A stretch of 15,113 nucleotides of DNA, from contig JAQGDQ010002096.1 in assembly GCA_030141605.1 (NCBI GenBank), positions 1 through 15,113 on the forward strand, given 5' to 3'. Positions 1 to 15,113 of the stretch are shown here, one piece after another. The stretch is from Tubiluchus corallicola. Lineage: Eukaryota; Animalia; Priapulida. The stretch's first letter is position 1, and each line of letters starts with the position of its first letter. The translations under genes and the position numbers were made by a program. The notes below the pieces were generated by a model. The model was not told where the DNA came from, made no database searches, and was given only the letters and a program-made list of their open reading frames with translations.

Positions 1-115
1 GAGGTTATAGCCTATAATTCCTATAAAACTTGATAAAACTATAAAAATGTCCTATAATTTCTATATTTTTTTCAAAAAATGTCCTATATTTTTGAAAAAT
101 AGAGTACCAGCCCTG
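1..115 (-). mobile_element. Partial copy (cut by window edge) of the CAGGG-ended MITE at 3597-3806, inverted relative to it
   Basis: Reverse complement of 1-115 aligns without gaps to 3597-3711 (7 mismatches). It has the terminus CAGGGCTGGTAC and internal TATAGGAATTATAGG sub-repeats. Confidence 0.8.
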
Positions 116-591
116 CTAATGCTCACTTAACTGTAGAAAAAATAAATTTTTGATCAAATGTCAGCAACTGTGGCTGCCAAATCTTGACAAATTCTAAAAC
201 CTTGGACATTAGCTAGACATTAATTTGGAGATGAAAGCATCGACAGAGTCACAAACTTGTTTCTTCTAACAACAAACCCATTTTAAGTCAATTAAAGGAA
301 AATGAATGGAACATTTACCTGACAGCTAGAATGTATTGTGACCTTTTGACCTACAGAATACTTCATACCAAACACCCATGATACTGACAAGTCCCCCATA
401 CCCTTGAACTTACAGTCTGTCAATTATTAAAGACATTGAGCTTCATGCACCTAAGATAAATCACATTTGAGCCAAATGAGTCCAAGGAAAATTTAAAGCT
501 TCAAAATCTTTTAAAGCGAAAGAAAATGTAATTTCAAAGCATGTCTCAAAACCTTTCTGTGTAAAATTGCATTCTTCAGCATTATGCTTAC

Positions 592-2339: not shown

Positions 2340-3385
2340 GCTCTGAAGTTTTCCACACAAGTGAGGCAAGGCAAACAAGATACTTGGATTAATCAGAAGA
2401 TCACGCGAATTTTTAAATGGAATGACATTAAAACTGGTTATTTGTAGCATTAGTTAGGCCACATCTTGAGTATGGTATAACAGCATGGATGCCTAGGTTT
2501 TGCTACAGACAAGAAGCTGATCAAAGGAGTTCTTCACCGAGCAACTAGGATGGTTGCACAGATCAAGGAACTGTCTTGTGAGAAGGGTCTAAAGTCTTTA
2601 GAGTTGTTTAGTATGTGGTACAGACAAATCCAAGGTGATATGATAGAAGTATACAAGTTTACACACGGAATGTACAGTATGCATGTTGAGATCCTTCAAA
2701 GAGATAATCAGACAAAAACTAGGGGACAGTCATACAAGTTAAGAAAAGGTATAGTCGCACTGCTACACGACACAACGTCTTCAGCTTGAGGGCTCTAGAT
2801 CGCTGGAAGAACCTCCCCGAGAATGTATTCTCTGCAAACTCCATAACCTCTTTTAAAAGCAAACAAGTACAGAGGCTGTACCACCTGGTATTTCTTAAAT
2901 GTGCTCGCAGTATCTCGACATTAGGCGGAGAGCTGCACAAGCAGCCAACTGCTAGAGGGCGGAGGAGGTCAAGTGACTCAACTTCCAAATCAGGAGTGGA
3001 GCCCCGAAGGCGGACCAGTGCAGCATGCTCACTGACTCCGGCAGCTCCTGCAGCCAACCTGGTGCCAAACGTATCGCTCCGCTTTCCTTTGGACTACACC
3101 AGGGAGGAAGAGAGGGGGGTTCCTGTTGTCTGGACAACTCAGGATCTCCATACACCTTGCCCAGACGTGCTCCCTGGAGACGTTCAAGGATCGCACTGCT
3201 CAGCCACAGTCGACGCTGCAGCTCCATCAATGTGATCAATAACTGACTCTCTTGGCGCACACTCCATTGTCTTCTGAGACAGAAGGATGCCAACAAGGCA
3301 CCCAGTTATGAACGGTCAACAGGCAGAGATGCCTAACAACTAAGACTGAACGGATATGATATGGAATGATACAACGATATGATAT
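2340..3385 (+). mobile_element. 5'-truncated, decayed CR1/L2-clade LINE (ORF2 C-terminus, 3' UTR, microsatellite tail), interrupted by an insertion at ~2865-3240
   Basis: Frameshifted translation gives KANKILGLIRRS..., LFVALVRPHLEYG..AW, RATRMV..., GDMIEVYK, TRGQSYKL, RWKNLPENV..ANSITSFKS, all typical CR1 ORF2 C-terminal motifs. It appears to resume near 3241 and ends in (GATAT)n-like repeats at ~3353-3385. Confidence 0.85.
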
Positions 3386-3596
3386 GCAACATTGCAATAA
3401 ACGAAGCAGTTCCTGGTATGAAGAAACATTGTGGAATTTTGAACTTCTACAGCAGATTTTATGATCATGTTTTGATAAGGTGTTTTCAACTAATTCAAAG
3501 CATTTGTCAACAACTGATGACAAAGATATGGGGCAAAAATCATCACACAAAGGACAGTTTGGGATTGGGTTAATATTACAGTTAAGTCAGCATTAG

Positions 3597-3806
3597 CAGG
3601 GCTGGTACTCTACTTCTCAAAAATATAGGACATTTTCCTAAAAAAATATAGGAATTATAGGACATTTTTATAGTTTTATCAAGTTTTATAGGAATTATAG
3701 GCTGTAACCTCAAAATATATTTGAGGAACTATAGGACGTTTTCAAAAAAATATAGGAATTATAGGACGTTTTCAAAAAAATATAGGAATTACAGGTACGA
3801 GCCATG
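3597..3806 (+). mobile_element. Non-autonomous DNA transposon (MITE, hAT-like CAGGG terminus), 210 bp
   Basis: Imperfect 12-bp TIRs CAGGGCTGGTAC / GTACGAGCCATG (10/12). Flanks CATTAG / CATTAC. Many TATAGGA sub-repeats and an internal 31-bp tandem duplication (~3730-3791). A second copy lies at 1-115. Confidence 0.75.
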
Positions 3807-4040: not shown

Positions 4041-6505
4041 ACAGTGTAATTTAATGGAGAAGTAACTTACTGAGGACATACACATAAACTTTTTTTCCCA
4101 AGCACATAATACAACAAATCAACAATGATACAAATGGGGGAAATGTCATGTTACAGGTGCAGAGAAAAGGGCAGCGAGGGATCATATGGGCCATCGAGTC
4201 TGCTGCCTCAACTCATAAAATTAATATAGCATACTGCATTAGTGGACACTATGGTACGGATTACAAAATTAACAAATGAGTAAATGTAAGATGTTAAGAA
4301 TTCTAATTAAAAAACAAATATCAGTATTGTAAGCTTATTAAATAATATCGAATCACCGTGTTTTGGATAACTAGGACAAGTAACGATATATTCGTTAAAA
4401 AACATCTGCTGTCCAACTTTCTGGCTATTGTTAATGACTTCGTAATGTAAAGGCTTTTGGTGATATTGGCTAATCAGCCCATACAAAAGTTCTAGATATT
4501 TACGTTATTCATAAACATATTTATGTTATAAACATATACATTATTGACCGTAAAATTCCTACCATTGCTAAACAATTATTGGACGATTATTAACGTGACG
4601 AAACTGTACAAAAGTGTAAATTAAATAAGGTAAACAATGAAATTCCAATTAGGAAACATAAATAAACGCCAGCAATAGGGCGAATCTTTTACTGCTACCT
4701 TGGAGAACAAGGATCTTGTCCTACAATTTTCTCACTTCTTAGCGACACACTGCTTTCGTCCAGGTTTTCCATTGCAAAGAAAACAAGTTGTTAACAGGGT
4801 TAGCAGCTAGACGAGAAGTTGCGAACAGGACCAAGGCCTGACAAACAACCAGTGTAATAATGACATTTTTCTTTGCTTGCTTGTTTGAGGAGGTGATCCA
4901 TTATTCTGACGTTATTGCAGTAATGACGCACAAGCTTGTCAATTTTATAACACGTGAATTTTCACGTTCTATTATGACGTCATGTGGAATTAATAGTTTT
5001 CCTCTCAAAGCAATTTACTGAAAAGCAACAATACTAACTGGCCTTCCATCCGCAGTTGACATTCTTATTCATGGTAATTGTTTTGTGTTCATTGTGGATT
5101 GTCTTGAATTCTCAATTTTTTCCATAAATTTTATGATTTTTTCTTTCAATTATTTTTTGTTAAAACAATAGCCCTTGATTAAGACACAGATGTCAGGTAC
5201 TAATAAGTATGTACAGTTGCACACACAATTGTCGGATTCTCTTTGTTTCATCATGTTTTGCTATTAAATTTTGATTTTTACTCAGAATTTCTCGTTTTGG
5301 TAATGGCTGCTATTGTGAGACGCATGTACAGATAGTATAAGGATGCACTTTTGTTATTGTGATACATTGGGTTAAATTATACAATTACAATCTCAAAGAA
5401 ATGTAACACGTATATTTATGGTTAAAACTGTTAGGAAAATACAAACAGCTAACATTTCTTCACTTCAACAGTAATATTGGTTCAGTTTTTTATTATGATT
5501 ATAACTTTGAGGCATCCATTGAACTAAGAATTAAGTCTATTACATAGACACGAATAGTTTATTTTGTTTTAAATGCCCCATGTTAATTGATTTTATCAAC
5601 ACAGGTCACATTATGTACCTTGCCTGGCCTGTATTACAGTCTATCTACAGCAGTACCTAAAAAAATTAGTGGCCAGGACATAAATACTTTCTTCTTGACA
5701 TAACTTTGGGAATGAAAGTTAAAAAGTCACTGTCACACATTTGGACACCCATAATGACACCTAGAAGAATGCTTCAAGCCCTCTTTTCCTAACATAGCCA
5801 GGCTCTGAAAGACCCTTAAACCAAAGGTCAAATTCCGAACTAGCCACAGCAGTTTAGAACGGTTTATTATAAAAAACAATCAGCAAAACTGATGTGCAGA
5901 GATGTTAAGGTTGTTCAGTTCGTCTTCGTGTTTTCTCTACTCAGCGTGAAAAAGGATAGGAGCTGTCAAAGATCAAGGTGAAAGCAGTTTGGACTAAGCA
6001 TGGGTTAGCATCTTTGCTGAGGGAATTTGTCTTATTGTATGACGGGTTGATGGTAACTGTACTTTTGTTGCTGCACTTTGCTTACACCTGCTACAGATAC
6101 TGTTGTTGGTGTTGATGGTGTTCTCTGTGTTCAGCATGATTTAGCTCACTATTTGAAGGTTAATTTTAAATTTCAGCTTCGTTAGATTGTTTTCCATTTA
6201 ATTTGTTTTTCATTTAATTTTATTTTTATTATTTTGCACGTTTTTCTCATTTTGAATTATGCATGGACGATATGACAGCTTGAATCATTTTTATATTCAG
6301 TTGTACCACATTATTTGGGTTATAGTTTACCATTGCTTTTTGCTTGTCATTTTGTTGTATGTTTAGATATTTTTCATTGCATTTTCACCCTTCAAATATT
6401 AAAGTTGGTTAGAGAATTTTCAACAGATCAAGTTGCTAAATATAATTTCAGTCCTATTCACGAGTTAAATAGTTACAGTGCCATCCCAGTAAACACGTTC
6501 ATTTA

Positions 6506-6785
6506 CAGTTGTGGCCAAAAGTTTAAGCCCACCTGTGAATACAATGTGAATTTTGAGCTTTTTTGGTATTCAATACCATATATTTTCCCTCATGGTGGAC
6601 CGATGCGTACACACGATGGCTCATTAGGAAGGTAATTGAAAATTGGAAATAAATGTTTGTGTTGCGCATGCACAGGACTATGAGATGATGACGTCATCAC
6701 TTAGACGTGCTCTCGGCAGTAGCTTCCTCCCCAGGAAATAATCGCGTTGCAATCACAGGTGGGCTTAAACTTTTGCCCACAACTG
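6506..6785. mobile_element. Tc1/mariner-type MITE, 280 bp
   Basis: 33-bp TIRs CAGTTGTGG(C/G)CAAAAGTTTAAGCCCACCTGTGA (32/33), flanked by TA on both sides (6504-6505, 6786-6787). Confidence 0.92.
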
Positions 6786-6868
6786 TATTAAAGGATAGAT
6801 TGACTAGTTGACCTTTATGGTCTTTAGCCATCCTATTTCATTATGATAATTAATTTTCCATTATGAAT

Positions 6869-6982: not shown

Positions 6983-7832
6983 TCGTGGTTTGTTGTAATA
7001 CCATGGCAAAGGTAACATAGGTTAATTACTGATGTTAATTTTCTAATAATTTCCTTTACCAGTAGAAAGTCTCTATCTGCCCCATAGTCACAGAAGGTCG
7101 AGATAAAATGTACAAAATCAAAATTAGATTGTAAACAAGTAAATAATTATTGTATATTTTCTTGTTCTATAACAACATCTGATCAACAACAACATAGACT
7201 CTCAAATTTTTAAATAATCTAAATAAGAAATCAATGGTCAACTAAGGAAAATAAATTGTGCTTCACTTTCAATAATCTGCTGGTCCTAACTTTACTAATC
7301 TACTATCATAACTTATAAAGATTCAATGACTAATGAACCAACCATTAACAACAAGCCAAAATCAACACAAAGGCAAACAACACAGTTCAAATTGTGGATT
7401 ACAATTTCTTAGCATGAATAACAAAAAGTGACATAATGTCATATCAATGCTTTCATAAAACCCAAAATGGTGTAGAAATGATGCACACGTGTAGATACAA
7501 TACTGTAATGTAGCATTATGCCTACGCATTGATGAACAAATGATTATTTTATTAAACTCAGAATATGCGAGCCGATCACCTTTCCTTTTTACTTTTCCTT
7601 TATTGTTTTTACAAGTAAGTTGACAAACAAGGCTAAACAACCCCTGTGAAGCACTTGTGTTACCAGCAAGAAGCCAAATACTGATATGTTGTAAAAGCTA
7701 ATGAACAGTTTGTGGTGCAAAATGACATGAGTAACTCCACGTCCTTCTTGAAGATAACACACAGAGTTTATTTTACATGCATTCATTGTCCTCGTTTTGA
7801 GACATTACTGTGTCTTCCAAATCCTGTACTAA

Positions 7833-8370
7833 AGGAAACCCGGACGACTGATTAGACTCAATCTCATTTTAATTTGCTGTACAAAATATACATCATCGCA
7901 CCTATAAAAGTTAGCAGTTGTTTCTTATGTTTGAATAATTAGCTTGGAAAGTTAATTAACGGCAATCGAACACAAGTATTGCTTACATCACAAACTAACT
8001 GCAGTTTGTACAATAGTAGGCATTCTCCCTGCGCGTCAAGCACGTTTGCATAAGCGAAGATTGCTATAAGACTTTGATGTGATGTCACGAATTTGGGATC
8101 TACGCCATGCTGACGTCACAGACAAACAATACAGTTTATGATCAATGCTTGTCAAGGCACAGCACCTATTTGTTGGTCAGGTGAATGTGAAAAAAGATGC
8201 CATTGCCGGTCGTGGATTCGCTGAACCACGCGTACCTTTGAAATTTTTACAAAATTTAACTATCCCTGGTAATTATTATTTAATCTAATTTAAAATTGCT
8301 ATTGTATTTTTCAATATTTTAGAGCGTACTTCATTTTGAACTAATGTCTACGCAGTCGTCCGGTCTTCCT
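7833..8370. mobile_element. Kolobok-like non-autonomous DNA transposon, 538 bp
   Basis: 25-bp TIRs AGGAAACCCGGACGACTGATTAGAC versus AGGAAGACCGGACGACTGCGTAGAC (21/25). Flanks CTAA / TTAA are a degenerate TTAA TSD. Purine-purine termini favour Kolobok over piggyBac. Confidence 0.75.
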
Positions 8371-8864
8371 TTAAGCCACTACCACAGCAGATTGTACATC
8401 CATTATTAACCTTCCCAGACTAGAAACTTCTAATATGTAACCTCCATAGCTTTTCAACTGGTCTGCCATAAAAGCAAGTCCTTTAGAAACTGACTAAGAC
8501 TTCTAGGCCAAATTGCTGGCAATTAAATCACTAAAATTACATGTATTTACAAAGATCCCGGTTGACATATTACACGAAGACATATGCAAAGAAATAAAAA
8601 ATACAGTGATGTGCAAAAAGTGAAGTATTGCACTTAGATGTGCATTGGAGACTAAAAATCATTTCGATTTTGTTAAAAAATTTATAGTGAAACCACATTC
8701 TATCTTTCACATTAGACGTGTTACATTAGCAAATTTGGATAGTAGCATACCTGCTGCTTCTTTTCATGTACCGGGTGGGAGCAGATGTATAATATGACAT
8801 TGTTTAACGTTAACTGCATACGTGTCTACTAGCTCACCGAAAATGTTATGGAATCTTGTTCATA

Positions 8865-9091: not shown

Positions 9092-9584
9092 GATGTTGGA
9101 GAACATTGGATGGTATCAATGCTTAGTTAGAGTCCTTGGATTGTGGCTGGCTTGTGAGCAGTACAATTTGTGTTTAATGTTGAGGAACATTGGATGGTAT
9201 AAATGCTTAGTTAGAGTCCTTGGATTGTGGCTTGCGAGCAGTATAGTACAATTTGTGTTTAATGTTGAGGAACATTGGATGGTATAAATGCTTAGTTAGA
9301 GTCCTTGGATTGTGGCTTGTGAGCAGTACAGTACAGTACAATTTGTATTTAATTTTGAAGAACATTGGATGATATAAACGTTTAGTTAAAGTACTTGGAT
9401 TGTGGCTTGTGAGCAGTACAGTTTGTGTTTAATGTTGAAGAACATTGGATGGTATAAATGCTTAGTTAGAGTCCTTGGATTGTGGCTTGTGAGCAGTACA
9501 CTTTGTATTTAATTTTGAAGAACATTGGATGATATAAACGTTTAGTTAGAGTACTTGGATTGTGGCTTGTGAGCAGTACACTTT
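9092..9584. repeat. Six-copy ~80-bp tandem array overlapping the DUSP stop codon and proximal 3' UTR
   Basis: Anchor TGTGGCT.. (core TGTGGCTTGTGAGCAGTACA) at 9142, 9226, 9311, 9401, 9481 and 9561 (spacings 84, 85, 90, 80, 80). Length variation comes from GGCT and GTACA micro-duplications. Confidence 0.95.
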
Positions 9585-10989
9585 TCTTTGTTCAGGTATA
9601 GTAATTGGAGGTGACATATTCTCGTTTGTCGGCGTCTGATCTCCGTCCTCTAGTGCTGGACGAGATCTTGTCATCGGCTCTACGTAAAACATGCTATTTT
9701 CTCCAACTTTTGTACCTCCGAATCCCACAAACGGTTCAACTTTAAACACACTGTCAGCACTTATACCCAAGCAGTCTTCGCACTTACAGGGACTAGGGCC
9801 AAGGCCCGAATCTTGCGAATCGCACGATAAGTGTCTCTTGTTAAGCGTAAAATTTGGCGATAGCTCTGAGCCTGCCCGGCAGTAGGGCAGCTCAGTTCTT
9901 AGTCCTAAAAAAGGATCACTATTGTCGCAGTGTAGAGTAGAATTGTTGTTATTCGTTGAACTGTCGGATGATCGACCGCTTGGATTTGAGGCTCTTTCAC
10001 ACTGTAACTGCCCTTGCCATTGACTAACAAACTGCTTGCGCACTTCTGGTGCAACACGAGACTCAGAGCATGTATTTGTTTGCTGCTGTTTGAAGCCGGG
10101 TTTGCACCAGTCAGGTTCAACAGACAATAATATGCTACTAGGACGTGTCGGATGCTCGCGAGCGTCCACGAGTGATGGTTTTAAATTCGTACGGTCGTCG
10201 GTTTCTGAAGAGGTTCGTCTCTCGATAGACTTTCCAAACACAAATAGTGGAGCTTTTGATGAATTTGGCGGATCTTGTTTTGGTGGAGGTGTGGCTTCTT
10301 TTGTTGGAGGTGCGGCTTCTTTTCTCTGCTTTCCTTTCACAAACTGCGGCTGAAACTTTGGAGGAGCAGACACGCTTTCTTGTACCGTGGCGCTACTCCG
10401 GAAAGGAAAGACAGGCTTGAGACCGGTGTCCGTCACCCGCGGAACGGACAAACCGGTTCCTCGGTTCAAGCCCGGAGCGCGCGAAACCGACAAACACGTT
10501 GGCTTCTCTAGATATTTAGTGCAAACTGACTTGGCATGTTTGTCCACTAGAGGGGTTCTTGAGAGAGACGTCGTGGTACTGGTCAATGTGGCTTCTATTG
10601 GACACGTAACCCGCACATGATATGTCACCGATTCGTCACCCGCACAAGTGATACTCAGCTTAGATGATGATAAAAACGACTTGCTCACTGAACATTCCTT
10701 TGTTAAACAAGGCATAAAACTGATCTTATCCAATTCGCACGTCGGAATCGATCTCACTGCCTTCTCTTCTAAGGTACTTCTAGGTTTGCCGACGTCTACT
10801 TTCAAGGTCATTGTATGCGGCGACTTTACAGGCGCCGTGGGAGTTGGCGTTGGACTTGGAGTAGGACGTCGTAACGGCGTGCCGGATTGAATAACGTAAC
10901 CGTGACTTTGTAGGATTTTTTCCCAATCTAATAGCTGCCCGAGAAAGTTGAAATTTGGCGAAATTACTGGCCGCTTCTCTTTTACATAC
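9546..10989 (-). CDS. DUSP8/DUSP16: Terminal coding exon of a dual-specificity MAP-kinase phosphatase (DUSP8/DUSP16, MKP-7-like): end of catalytic domain plus long Ser/Pro/Thr-rich tail
   Basis: Acceptor ccgttcgcag|G at 10989. Reads (R)YVKEKRPVISPNFNFLGQLLDWEKIL and continues in frame into the 421-aa ORF, 480 codons to TAA at 9546-9548. SPNFNFLGQLL, a long tail and the terminal CSQATIQVL (compare ..IEVS termini of vertebrate DUSP8/16) fit this subfamily. The Met at 10811 is internal. Confidence 0.9.
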
Positions 10990-12978
10990 CTGCGAACGGA
11001 ATAAATTTTGTTGTATTTAGTTGAAGTTAGTTACATACAATGAGAGAAATTTTAGTAGCCATCTTAAATGGAATGTATATAACAATGATGAGCAAAGGTG
11101 GCATGTTCAATCTAAGGTTTAGGACAAAGAAATTTGTATAAGAACAAGAGCACAATACACTGTCACTTTACCAGAGGTGTAGTCAGGTCCATTAAGGGGA
11201 GTGGTTGCTCCTCTTCCTCCCCTATTAGCTACGTCATTCCACCTCGCATGCTTGCTCACATTTATACAAAAGACAGTAGGACAGCATCGCACACTGCCAT
11301 CTATGTTTGACCAAGTGAAACAATCCACACTGTGCTATATATACACCATACACAAGCTTAGTTAACTTACCTGTAGGCATCGTCTGAAGATATTGCACAC
11401 TGCCATCTATGTTTGACCAAGTGAAACAATCCACACTGTGCTATATATACACCATACACAAGCTTAGTTAACTTACCTGTAGGCATCATCTGAAGATATT
11501 GCACACTGCCATCTATGTTTGACCAAGTGAAACAATCCACAAGCTTGGTTAACTTACCTGTAGGCATCGTCTGAAGATATCGCACACTGCCATCTATGTT
11601 TGACCAAGTGAAACAATCCACACCATGCTATATATACACAATACACAAGCTTAGTTAACTTACCTGTAGGCATCGTCTGAAGATATCGCACAGTGCCATC
11701 TATGATTGACTAAATGAAACAATCCACAAGCTTAGTTAACTTACCTGTAGGCATCGTCTGAAGATATCCCACACTGCCATCTATGTTTGACCAAGTGAAA
11801 CAATCCACAAGCTTGGTTAACTTACCTGTAGGCATCGTCTGAAGATATCGCACACTGCCATCTATGTTTGACCAAGTGAAACAATCCACACCATGCTATA
11901 TATACACAATACACAAGCTTAGTTAACTTAGCTGTAGGCATCGTCTGAAGACAACGCACACTGCCATCTATGTTTGACCAAGTGAAACAATCCACACTGT
12001 GCTACATATACACAATACGCAAGCTTAGTTAACTTACCTGTAGGCATCGTCTGAAGATATCCCACACTGCCATCTATGTTTGACCAAGTGAAACAATACA
12101 CAAGCTTAGTTAACTTACCTGTAGGCATCGTCTGAAGATAATACACACTGCCATCTATGTTTAACCAAGTGAAACAATCCACACCGTGCTATATATACAC
12201 AATACACAAGCTTAGTTAACTTACCTGTAGGCATCATCTGAAGATATCGCACACTGCCATCTATGTTTGACCAAGTGAAACAATCCACAAGCTTAGTTAA
12301 CTTACCTGTATGCATTGTCTGAAGATAATGCACACTGCCATCTATGTATGACCAAGTGAAACAATACACAAGCTTAGTTAACTTACCTGTAGGCATCGTC
12401 TGAAGATATCGCACACTGCCATCTATGTTTGACCAAGTGAAACAATCCACACTGTTCTATATATACACAATACACAAGCTTAGTTAAGTTACCTATAAGC
12501 ATCACCTGAAGATATCGCACACTGCCATCTATGTTTGACCAAGTGAAACAATCCACAAGCTTAGTTAACTTAGCTGTAGGCATCATCTGAAGATATCGCA
12601 CACTGCCATTTATGTTTGACCAAGTGAAACAATCCACAAGCTTAGTTAACTTATCTGTAGGCATCGTCTGAAGATATCGCACACTGCCATCTATGTTTGA
12701 CCAAGTGAAACAAACCACAAGCTTAGTTAACTTACCTGTATGCATCGTCTGATGATATCGCACACTGCCATCTATGTTTGACCAAGTGAAACAATACACA
12801 AGCTTAGTTAACTTACCTGAATGCATCGTCTGACGATATCGCACACTGCCATCTATGTTTGACCAAGTGAAACAATACACAAGCTTAGTTAACTTACCTG
12901 CATGCATCGTCTGACGATATCGCACACTGCCATCTATGTTTGACCAAGTGAAACAATCCACAAGCTTAGTTCACTTAC
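10990..12978 (-). other. Phase-2 GT-AG intron of the DUSP gene, 1989 bp
   Basis: Donor TACAG|GTAAGT (12978) and acceptor CGCAG|G (10990). Joining gives ...SSDDAYR-YVKEKRP..., a continuous DUSP catalytic domain. Confidence 0.92.
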
Positions 12979-13002
12979 CTGTATGCATCGTCTGAAGATA
13001 TC
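11286..13002. repeat. 19-copy tandem array of 81-bp and 106-bp units containing the duplicated exon end and splice donor
   Basis: Donor +1 equivalents at 11370, 11476, 11557, 11663, 11744, 11825, 11931, 12037, 12118, 12224, 12305, 12386, 12492, 12573, 12654, 12735, 12816, 12897 and 12978 (12 spacings of 81, 6 of 106). Confidence 0.97.
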
Positions 13003-13102
13003 TGTAAATGTTTCATGACATATCCAATCGCAAATGTAGGAGATCGAGATATTCCAGCCATGCAATGCAACAACACCGAGGCGTGCGATTCACGTACTTT
13101 AT
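12979..13102 (-). CDS. DUSP8/DUSP16: Catalytic-site exon (124 bp) of the DUSP8/DUSP16-like phosphatase
   Basis: Acceptor tattatttcag| and donor |gtaagt. Encodes DKVRESHASVLLHCMAGISRSPTFAIGYVMKHLQISSDDAYR with the intact HCxxGxxRS PTP loop. No upstream DUSP exon was recognised in the window. Confidence 0.93.
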
Positions 13103-13310
13103 CTGAAATAATACCAGAGGTGTTTAAGTAGGAAAACATGTTTACTGAGCATAAAATTTTACGCTGGTAGAATAAACACGATAAACAGAATTTAAAACAA
13201 ACCATCAATTCTCTTAGAGCCACACAGAAACTGGTTTCAGTCATAGCTCTGTTTAAGCGGTTCAAAAACAATTCATTTCTGATTAAACGGGAAACCGTTT
13301 ATAAGTGGTG

Positions 13311-13808
13311 CAGGGATGAGATTGACAAATTGCAAAAAACTCTGAAACAGGCCGGGGGTTTGGGGGCCGCATAGGCCCCCATGGGGGCGAAGCAACAAAT
13401 TGCAATTTTGTGACCATAGAGAACCTCTATGTGGACTTAAAATATCAATTACCTTGTTTCATGCATAATTTAAAATACCCAACTATCAAGGATACATGAT
13501 ACCTAATTGTCTCAAAAACGCCTAAGTACTGGCCGCTCCTATGCAAAAGTATATAAAAACTGTCTGCAATTGACTCAAATAACTCCGCACAATTGATTCT
13601 ATATTTTTATACATAGAGATCTACACGTGGTTACACTGATGTACACGATGTAAACAAAGTGACGGCCTGCCACCTAGCCGTGAGCTTGTGAAATAATGTA
13701 CTGGGTCCGTAAAAATTTTCTCAACGAATTTACGTGATTTACAAAATGGCACTACTGGTCTTCCAAAAACTAGGAATTCTGCGTATCCGCGGGAAATTCT
13801 CATCCCTG
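13311..13808. mobile_element. Non-autonomous DNA transposon (hAT-like MITE), 498 bp, in the upstream DUSP intron
   Basis: 11-bp perfect TIRs CAGGGATGAGA / TCTCATCCCTG. Flanks GTGGTG / GTGGTA. Internal GC-rich GGGGGCC..GGCCCCC hairpin. Confidence 0.8.
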
Positions 13809-14119
13809 GTGGTAATGAATGTCCAATTGCCCATGTGGATCATTTTGACAAGTTCCTTAACTTTGGTTGATTTGAAGATATAAACCAGGTGAATTCAACT
13901 CGTTCAGTGAGTGAAAGGCGATACTTCAAAATGATTGATCGTATAATAAACCTTTTATTAATACGGAACCATTAGTCCACGTCACAAGTATGCGTCTTAT
14001 AATTATTTCTGTAAGCTTTACTCACAGCTAAACACCGATAAAACCATGAAGTAACACTAAAACGACACTGAACACGGTGAATTCGTCACCGATCGTCCGG
14101 TCTCAAAGACATTTCTTTC

Positions 14120-14488
14120 TGTTGTGTTGTGTTTCTCTCGGAAGGCTCGTAGAGAAAACCAGAAAACACTTCGTCAAATTAAACCAGTTTATTAAGCGAG
14201 AATTCTACAACACAAAAGTATGAAGGAACACGAAATGATTTCAGTAAACGTGAAAATCTGGAAAACGTTTAAGTGTATCTGAAAATACAAGTATACAAGA
14301 GAATGTGTAAGTGGCGTCCGTGTGAATCTGCGTGTCCGTCTCAGCGGCCTGCTTCGCCTTATATAGGGTGCCAGGGAACATTCTAGACGAGTCTTTCTAG
14401 AACATTCTACAAGGTAAGACGATTATTCTAATGCAACATTCTACAATGTTCTATTTAATTCTAATAGATGTCAGCGATCTCCACAACA
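14120..14488 (-). mobile_element. Solo LTR of an LTR retrotransposon, 369 bp, same orientation as the DUSP gene
   Basis: TGTTGTG...CACAACA inverted termini and perfect 5-bp TSD CTTTC (14115-14119, 14489-14493). On the minus strand TATATAA (14365-14359) precedes AATAAA (14193-14188), giving U3-R-U5 order. Confidence 0.88.
14359..14451 (-). promoter_or_regulatory. LTR promoter: TATA box with adjacent heat-shock elements
   Basis: Perfect three-unit HSE TTCtaGAAcaTTC (14395-14407), near-perfect GAAcaTTCtaGAc (14376-14388) and degenerate CAAcaTTCtaCAAtgTTC (14434-14451), all immediately upstream of the minus-strand TATATAA. Confidence 0.6.
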
Positions 14489-14880
14489 CTTTCTCAAGTG
14501 ACAACGCGCGGTAAAACGTGGGCGGATGGTGTGATAAGTATAACCAACTAAAAATTTGAGGATATTTTCAGTACAACTTCACAAAATTCTATTGTAAGTT
14601 CTACACCCGGGGAAAACTAAGCCACAGATCTTCAATGATAAATCAGCCTCTGTCACTGTTACACCGTTCAAAAGCGTTTCTGCTACTTTGAAGTTGTCCC
14701 AAACTGTCCAAAATGCGATGAGCCTCTTTTGGTACATGTTTGCGGGATCTTATGCTTCTGGAAGAGCGTATTAATTACATTTCTCCTAATAAACACTGTA
14801 CATGTTCAACGATACATGATTCATTAACCAAATACGATGGATTATAAACACAGATTATAGATAAATTATATATATATATG

Positions 14881-15113
14881 CAGTGTTCCCTCGCTACTTC
14901 GCGGTTCGTTTATTGCGGACTCGCTACTTTGCGGGTTTTCAAAAATATTAATGTAAAATATCTATCGCGGTATTTTTGCATTTTCACGGGTTTTTGCAGT
15001 ACTCCTTCTAAAGTATTTTTGCACATGCGTAGTACGTATTGTACAGTAATGTATAGATCTGATGAATTTTGCATAAAAAAATCACAAAATGTATAAAAAT
15101 ATATTAAAAACAT
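14881..15113 (+). mobile_element. Left part of a pogo/Tigger-like MITE inserted in a (TA)n run
   Basis: Begins CAGTGTTCCCTCGCTACTTCGCGG after tatatatatg, with an internal repeat CTCGCTACTT(C/T)GCGG. The other end lies outside the window. Confidence 0.6.

What the first reader, a model, noticed from the sequence alone, without database searches (positions are those of the whole stretch)
11286..13002. Intron built from 19 tandem copies of the exon end and 5' splice site: decoy donors or a recursive-splicing ladder
Seen: each unit contains the last 24 nt of the catalytic exon plus GTAAGT. Of 18 extra donors, 14 keep CAG|GTAAGT, one is TAG|GTAACT and three have lost GT (11931, 12573, 12654). Extending the exon to any extra donor includes AGG-TAA in frame, truncating at ...DDAYR* before the SPNFNF motif (likely inactive and an NMD substrate). 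Each unit also reads GT...CAG|GT, an 81/106-nt intron with a zero-length exon whose removal regenerates the same junction. Established: AG|GT duplication is a proposed intron-gain route and AG|GT is the recursive-splicing signature. Inference: copy number could act as a splicing rheostat for a JNK/p38 phosphatase. Polypyrimidine tracts in the units are weak.
Basis: partly seen in the sequence, partly recalled or inferred. Interest (0 to 1): 0.8.

Follow-up and report, generated by a model that had tools for sequence, protein, structure and literature searches.

The report
Repeated splice donor in worm phosphatase
The end of one exon of a MAP-kinase phosphatase gene, likely from a priapulid worm, is repeated 18 more times together with its splice signal in the next intron; this repeat type is already known from human, lancelet and chicken genes, and the cell likely still uses the first signal, so the copies are likely a harmless by-product rather than a control device.

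Summary
There are 19 tandem units (12 of 81 nt, 7 of 106 nt) at 13002-11289, minus strand. Each holds 24 nt of exon end plus the donor. Of 18 extra donors, 14 are CAG|GTAAGT, 1 is TAG|GTAACT and 3 lack GT; any read-through meets TAA at once. The gene is DUSP8/16-like; the closest named relative is from Priapulus caudatus. DNA contigs show the tandem joints, so the array is real. This is a known class: human F7, CBS, 6-16, LMNB2 and PDGF minisatellites, amphioxus 'mirages', chicken 'exon stuttering'. This scan noted the same arrangement in other genomes. Function looks unlikely. Donor positions mutate at the background rate (4 of 28 alleles in 9 of 80 sites, p=0.55). The copied AGs have a competing AG 15 nt upstream, against 44 and 75 nt for the real acceptors. 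Three copies would be dead ends in a ladder. A second 80-bp array spans this gene's stop codon with no donor. No RNA covered the junction, so donor use is untested.

The parts
12979..13102 (-). Catalytic exon (124 nt) of a DUSP8/16-like MAP-kinase phosphatase, with HCMAGISRS active-site loop; acceptor TATTATTTCAG at 13103
   Evidence: Pfam DSPc 45.2 bits over cutoff 33.5; best PDB hits DUSP16 4yr8 and DUSP8 4jmk; 41 of 42 residues identical to P0001 by eye
12972..12981 (-). Authentic donor CAG|GTAAGTG (+1 at 12978); the only copy with G at +7
   Evidence: U1 duplex -12.9 kcal/mol against -12.1 for the 14 intact copies
11289..13002 (-). Tandem array of 19 units (12 x 81 nt, 7 x 106 nt): 24 nt of exon end plus 57 or 82 nt of intron start; the first unit is the real exon/intron boundary; GAT at 11288-11286 repeats the first 3 nt of the unit
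   Evidence: 'goes back 81' and 'goes back 106' joints in DNA contigs
10990..11285 (-). 3' part of the intron outside the array (296 nt): branch-like CTAAC with A at 11027, no other AG for 75 nt, acceptor TTCGCAG ending at 10990; holds a piece of a dispersed repeat near 11194-11236
   Evidence: loose ends and raised depth in three DNA runs
9546..10989 (-). Last coding exon: end of the phosphatase domain (YVKEKRPVISPNFNFLGQLL) and a long C-terminal tail, stop TAA at 9548-9546
   Evidence: 83% identical to P0001, 40% to Priapulus caudatus XP_014671182.1
9093..9578 (-). Second minisatellite (period about 80, about 6 copies) whose first copy holds the last codons and the stop of the same gene; no donor motif. 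Serves as an internal control

Best explanation
This is a minisatellite of 19 tandem copies whose first unit is the real exon-intron boundary of a DUSP8/16-like phosphatase gene; it likely arose by local duplication at a short microhomology and grew by slippage or unequal exchange, the spliceosome likely picks the first donor, and any rare slip to a later donor would give a stop-containing RNA that is likely degraded, so the array is likely tolerated passenger DNA. Shown: the unit structure, the intact first copy, the in-frame stop, the separate acceptor, background-rate change at the donors, a second array of similar period over the stop codon. Inferred: (1) origin by duplication between GAT at the exon side and GAT at the intron side; (2) the 106-nt unit is older and the 81-nt units come from loss of 25 nt between two near-identical TGTG(T/G)ATTGT words, since both possible products occur (4 with T, 8 with G); (3) first-donor choice, from the 124-nt exon with at least 2 kb of upstream intron (exon definition, established knowledge) and from F7 minigene results; (4) nonsense-mediated decay of slips, since the stop lies 77 nt or more before the junction.
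For: Class precedent: F7 pseudo-sites are functional but unused while the first donor is intact; only the authentic donor is used in LMNB2 (100-bp unit, 10-15 copies) and PDGF (81-bp unit, 16-18 copies) (PMC1557585). Amphioxus mirages do not disturb splicing (PMC3087553; PMC3902484). No sign of selection on the copies: 4 of 28 derived alleles fall in the 9 donor positions of 80 (3.2 expected, p=0.55); zero would have had probability 0.035; two different changes hit +1G. The first donor pairs with U1 at least as well as any copy. A second ~80-bp array straddles the stop codon and has no donor. A relative's 761-aa protein on a 3514-nt contig reads ...VSSDDAYRYVKEKRP..., the junction predicted from the first donor.
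Against: No RNA from this organism covers the junction, so first-donor use is inferred, not seen. The 14 intact copies are perfect consensus donors, and in F7 perfect-consensus pseudo-sites did compete, though against a weaker first site. In CBS and 6-16 the next two donors are used, and here the three nearest copies all keep GT. The selection test has only 28 alleles and treats copies as independent, so weak selection would be missed. Whether the relative behind P0001 carries the array is unknown.
Confidence: 0.72

Rival explanations
1. Leaky decoys with a dose effect: the nearest copies are used often enough that repeat number measurably lowers functional mRNA, as reported for human CBS. It could be a side effect or a selected rheostat on MAP-kinase signalling.
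For: 14 of 18 copies are perfect donors with U1 pairing within 0.8 kcal/mol of the first. All slips stop at DDAYR*. Predicted accessibility does not single out the first donor. CBS precedent. A 93-nt joint in run X2 that matches no unit of the window hints at allelic variation.
Against: No conservation of donors above background. F7, LMNB2, PDGF and amphioxus cases show first-donor use. The donor-free array at the stop codon shows the locus makes such repeats anyway.
Confidence: 0.19
2. Recursive-splicing ladder or dual-specific sites: each CAG|GT serves first as acceptor and then as donor, so the intron is removed in 81/106-nt steps, giving the same mRNA as one-step splicing.
For: 15 of 18 copies keep YAG|GT. 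Step lengths are large enough for an intron (established knowledge). Tandem AGGT sites are used both ways in human UBC (PMC10809524). Recursive splicing occurs over a range of intron sizes (PMC10156609). The organism's real acceptors are themselves pyrimidine-poor (12 of 20), so weak tracts do not exclude use.
Against: All 18 copied AGs have another AG at -15 and one or two more within 40 nt; the real acceptors have none within 44 and 75 nt. The one YTNAY shared by all units is at -52, upstream of those AGs; the real acceptor has CTAAC at -38 with no AG between. The three copies with AG but no GT would give DDAYR* or DDAYS* dead ends. 0 of 18 match the Y5+N0-4YAGGT search motif of PMC10156609, but both real acceptors also fail its pyrimidine part, so that test alone is inconclusive.
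Confidence: 0.05
3. Assembly artefact: a single boundary was expanded by the assembler.
For: No laid contig spans the array; runs X1 and X2 may be the sample the window was built from.
Against: Units differ at 23 of 80 columns in patterned ways, with higher-order blocks. Contigs of X1, X2 and X3 show unit-to-unit joints. Summed depth over one unit in X2 is 4244 against 176-239 on the flanking exon; the tool warns this is no copy number, but it fits a many-copy repeat.
Confidence: 0.02
4. Intron gain by AG|GT duplication created this intron.
For: The spliced junction itself reads CAG|GTATGT, a proto-splice-like site; duplication of AG/GT sites is a proposed route to new introns (PMC3087553).
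Against: The acceptor and branch motif lie 296 nt outside the array. Removing 18 units leaves an ordinary intron of 381 nt (1989 minus 1608). The copies are about 95% alike, so the array is young and sits inside an older intron.
Confidence: 0.02

Closest known systems
Human junction-spanning minisatellites: F7 intron 7 (37 bp, 5-9 copies), 6-16 intron 2 (25 pseudo-sites), CBS intron 13 (15-20), LAMIN B2 (100 bp, 10-15), PDGF intron 4 (81 bp, 16-18). PMC1557585: abstract, passages and part 1 of the reference list read; the primary papers were not read
   Same: First unit spans the exon-intron boundary; the donor is reiterated down the intron; unit length and copy number match PDGF and LAMIN B2 closely.
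   Different: Different gene and phylum; here the donor is a perfect consensus with an in-frame TAA at +2 to +4; two interleaved unit lengths; donor use not measured.
Amphioxus 'mirage' minisatellites (Adh3, troponin C, globins BflGb6 and BflGb9, PGBD5). PMC3087553 and PMC3902484: passages read
   Same: Invertebrate tandem duplications of exon/intron boundaries; many but not all copies keep splice signals; already discussed as a possible route to intron gain.
   Different: Those have RT-PCR evidence of normal splicing and shown length variation; neither is shown here. No priapulid case appeared among the 10 of 251 papers listed.
Chicken 'exon stuttering' (236 introns, 115 genes; 1-44 copies; median span 1751 bp). 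PMC12954441: passages read
   Same: Direct tandem repetition of an exon edge with its splice site inside the adjacent intron; the 1.7-kb span here equals their median.
   Different: Theirs is tied to GC-rich dot chromosomes; this array is about 40% GC.
Dual-specific splice-site arrays of human UBC and VCX3A. PMC10809524: abstract, passages and section 7 read
   Same: Tandem repeat with AG|GT in every unit.
   Different: There both splice sites lie in the repeat and units are coding; here the acceptor lies outside the array and the units are non-coding with an immediate stop.

Membership tests
Junction-spanning minisatellite (F7/CBS type, mirage, exon stuttering) | First monomer spans a real exon-intron boundary | tested here: met
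   Unit 0 is 13002-12922: 24 nt of coding exon plus 57 nt of intron
Junction-spanning minisatellite (F7/CBS type, mirage, exon stuttering) | Direct tandem copies reiterate the splice site within the adjacent intron | tested here: met
   18 further copies, 15 with GT
Junction-spanning minisatellite (F7/CBS type, mirage, exon stuttering) | Source exon and reading frame left intact | tested here: met
   Open 521-codon frame from the exon start to the stop when the first donor is used; matches P0001 and P0002
Junction-spanning minisatellite (F7/CBS type, mirage, exon stuttering) | Length or composition varies between alleles | tested here: inconclusive
   One contig of X2 shows a 93-nt back-joint at depth 96.8 that fits no unit in the window; contigs cannot give allele lengths
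Junction-spanning minisatellite (F7/CBS type, mirage, exon stuttering) | Authentic (most upstream) donor dominates in mRNA | not testable with these tools
   No RNA record covered the junction
Recursive splice site | YAG directly joined to GT | tested here: met
   15 of 18 copies
Recursive splice site | Pyrimidine tract before the YAG (Y5+N0-4YAGGT, PMC10156609) | tested here: inconclusive
   0 of 18 copies match, but both real acceptors also fail the pyrimidine part
Recursive splice site | Branch motif with no competing AG between it and the acceptor (established knowledge of 3' splice sites) | tested here: not met
   AG at -15 in 18 of 18 and further AGs within 40 nt; shared YTNAY only at -52; real acceptors AG-free for 44 and 75 nt
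Recursive splice site | Lariat or nascent-RNA evidence of stepwise removal | not testable with these tools
   No raw RNA reads were offered
Dual-specific-site intron in a tandem repeat (UBC/VCX3A type) | Both splice sites lie in repeat units, so intron length is a multiple of the unit | tested here: not met
   Acceptor at 10990 is 296 nt outside the array
DUSP8/16 (vhp-1-like) MAP-kinase phosphatases | DSPc domain with HCxAGxSRS loop, nearest to DUSP8/16 | tested here: met
   Pfam PF00782 over cutoff; top PDB hits DUSP16 and DUSP8; named homologues DUSP8-like, DUSP16 and vhp-1-like
DUSP8/16 (vhp-1-like) MAP-kinase phosphatases | N-terminal rhodanese-like kinase-binding domain | not testable with these tools
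   Upstream exons lie outside the window and no genome is held; P0001 and P0002 carry PF00581

The most novel reading that the evidence does not exclude
The array is a working ladder of 81/106-nt recursive steps or a selected, copy-number-tuned decoy bank that sends part of the phosphatase mRNA to decay, or yields a kinase-binding but catalytically dead protein, and so sets MAP-kinase signal strength. Unit-specific SNPs would let each rung be read directly.
Probability: 0.06. Interest if true: 0.7.

Novelty: new member of a known kind. Interest (0 to 1): 0.17.

Why it matters
As it stands it matters little: it is one more case of a repeat type described in humans, lancelets and chickens and met many times in this scan. 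Its modest value is as a natural test of donor choice in a little-studied animal group, with 15 near-identical perfect donors in a row that SNPs can tell apart. It would matter more if later donors or internal lariats proved common, because repeat number would then tune a signalling phosphatase.

Tried and rejected
No genome is held, so I could not count how common such arrays are in this organism, train a splice-site model or see the upstream exons. Run search: no RNA holder listed; this is no evidence either way. X6 (RNA by guess) gave one contig on the last exon (9728-9993, 19 differences in 266) and one 54-nt match on the catalytic exon with 9 differences and unrelated flanks, probably a paralogue; neither reaches the junction. 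X5 had no cover of exon or unit. X3 reads through the acceptor to 10995 without mismatch and holds a unit joint, so it behaves as DNA; its near identity means it may not be an independent animal. RNA-structure masking of the copies: local folding at three window sizes gave no consistent advantage to the first donor (mean unpaired 0.42, 0.38, 0.37 against ranges 0.32-0.58, 0.18-0.47, 0.17-0.49), so I dropped it. A 13-nt micro-exon between the inner TCAG and each donor shifts the frame and has weaker pyrimidine context (8-10 of 20); no support. Shared intron position in paralogues could not be read from contigs stopping at 10992, because exon end and intron end both finish in CAG. The trial splice was off by one base and its spliced translation is wrong; one search corrects it. 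Turri 1995 was not held. PMC10078293 passages added nothing specific.

Full report
What is there. The finding lies on the minus strand in the intron after the catalytic exon of a dual-specificity phosphatase. The exon (13102-12979) scores 45.2 bits on Pfam DSPc, positions 69-108 of 133; positions 109-132 lie in the next exon. The best solved relatives are DUSP16 and DUSP8. A search with the last exon found 10 proteins; the best were an unnamed 761-aa protein (P0001, 83%) and Priapulus caudatus DUSP8-like (39%). The animal is therefore likely a priapulid. That DUSP8/16 act on JNK and p38 is recalled, not tested.

The array. There are 19 units, twelve of 81 nt and seven of 106 nt, from 13002 to 11289. 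Each is 24 nt of exon end plus 57 or 82 nt of intron start. Unit 0 is the real boundary. Fourteen of 18 extra donors are CAG|GTAAGT, one is TAG|GTAACT, three lack GT. Mean pairwise identity is 94.6% over 80 shared columns. The intron runs 12978-10990; 1693 of its 1989 nt are array and the last 296 nt are outside it. First-donor splicing gives an open frame to the stop at 9548-9546; every later position gives ...DDAYR* with the stop 77-1604 nt before the junction.

Is it real? Six runs were listed, four holding the last exon, none on record as RNA. Contigs show 'goes back 106' joints in X1, X2 and X3 and a 'goes back 81' joint in X2. Summed depth on one unit in X2 is 4244 against 176-239 on the last exon; the tool warns this is no copy number, and X1 and X2 may be the source sample. 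One X2 contig has a 93-nt back-joint that fits no unit of the window, a weak hint that the other allele differs. No record spans the array.

How it likely arose (inference). The unit begins with GAT in the exon and the array ends with GAT in the intron, as expected from a duplication at a short microhomology. The 106-nt unit has two near-identical words, TGTGTATTGT (TGTGTATGGT in the last two units) and TGTGGATTGT, 25 nt apart. The 81-nt units carry one or the other (4 with T, 8 with G), the two products expected from losing the 25 nt between them. Periods of 187 and 268 show later block duplications. The array is thus young and grew inside an older intron of about 381 nt. It did not create the intron.

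Is there selection on the copies? Among the 18 extra units, 28 derived alleles occur in 80 columns; 4 fall in the 9 donor positions (p=0.55), two of them different changes of +1G. Zero changes would have had probability 0.035, so strict conservation is not seen. There is also no clear purge: the three nearest copies keep GT and the excess at GT is not significant (p=0.15). The test is small and copies share ancestry. As a control within the gene, a second array of period about 80 starts in the last codons and repeats the stop codon six times with no donor motif. The locus makes such repeats at coding edges whether or not a splice site is included.

Recursive ladder. Fifteen copies keep YAG|GT. 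But all 18 copied AGs have another AG at -15 and more within 40 nt, and the only branch-like YTNAY shared by all units is at -52, upstream of them. The two real acceptors are AG-free for 44 and 75 nt, and the downstream one has CTAAC at -38. Three copies keep AG without GT; used as acceptors they would give DDAYR* or DDAYS*. Against my reading: pyrimidine content does not separate copies (9-12 of 20) from real acceptors (12 of 20), and the real acceptors fail the published minimal motif just as the copies do. Human UBC shows tandem AGGT sites can be used both ways (PMC10809524, section 7 read), and recursive splicing occurs in introns of many sizes, less often in short ones (PMC10156609, passages). 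I leave 5%.

Which donor is used? Not observed. The first donor pairs with U1 at -12.9 kcal/mol, the 14 intact copies at -12.1, the damaged ones at -5.4 to -6.4 (U1 motif recalled). Folding does not favour the first donor. P0001, on a 3514-nt contig too short to hold its coding sequence plus an intron of this size, reads straight through DDAYRYVKEK, but it comes from a relative whose intron is unknown. The expectation of first-donor use rests on exon definition (established knowledge) and on published cases.

Known class. PMC1557585 (abstract, passages, part of references) describes minisatellites whose first monomer spans an exon-intron boundary. F7 uses only the first donor, and later ones only if it is mutated. 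LAMIN B2 (100 bp, 10-15 copies) and PDGF (81 bp, 16-18 copies) use only the authentic donor. CBS and 6-16 use two extra donors. A review passage reports lower CBS activity with more repeats (PMC5188458). Amphioxus mirages do not disturb splicing and were already proposed as a route to intron gain (PMC3087553; PMC3902484; passages). Chicken exon stuttering covers 236 introns (PMC12954441, passages). So the arrangement, the decoy idea and the intron-gain idea are all in print. This scan holds 137 notes matching the search words in at least 40 genomes; the 8 shown describe the same arrangement (unreviewed notes, used as leads). I saw no priapulid case in the 10 of 251 papers listed; that is a narrow search. 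No supplements were read.

Verdict. A real, accurately described feature and a new member of a known kind. Most likely a tolerated passenger (0.72); a measurable leak is possible (0.19); a ladder is unlikely (0.05). Interest 0.17.

Noticed in passing
window 9093-9578 (-): Second minisatellite, period about 80, whose first copy carries the gene's last codons and stop; each of six copies repeats ...ATIQ(V/G)L*.
   Followed up: partly
window 13292-13808, 14106-14549, 14846-15113: Very high-copy dispersed repeats in the upstream intron: summed depth 0.07-2 million in X2 against about 90 on neighbouring single-copy pieces. Probably transposon-derived; not classified.
   Followed up: no
window 2481-2786 (+): Stop-free stretch whose translation (…LHRATRMVAQIKELSCEKGLKSLELFSMWYRQIQGDMIEVYKF…) resembles the end of a CR1/L2-type LINE reverse transcriptase; this is recalled, and Pfam gave no supporting hit.
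   Followed up: partly
window 1-135 and 3577-3711: Inverted repeat of 135 nt, 94% complementary, 3441 nt apart, with internal 30-nt subrepeats; could be the ends of a DNA transposon.
   Followed up: no
window 6504-6787 and 7830-8373: Short elements bounded by inverted repeats of 51 nt and 28 nt, MITE-like.
   Followed up: no
window 10989-10982 (-): The last exon starts GTATGT after CAG, so the real acceptor and the spliced junction both read CAG|GTATGT, a donor-like site (U1 pairing -9.9 kcal/mol). It is fixed by the codons for R-Y-V.
   Followed up: partly
window 10920-10992: Contigs of 4.2 and 5.3 kb in X1 and X2 match this stretch with 13 differences in 73, pointing to a second DUSP8/16-like gene, as Priapulus has (P0002 and P0006).
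   Followed up: no
window 10330-11155: An X2 contig differs from the window at 14 of 827 letters while the X1 contig of the same sample is identical, suggesting about 1.7% difference between the two alleles.
   Followed up: no
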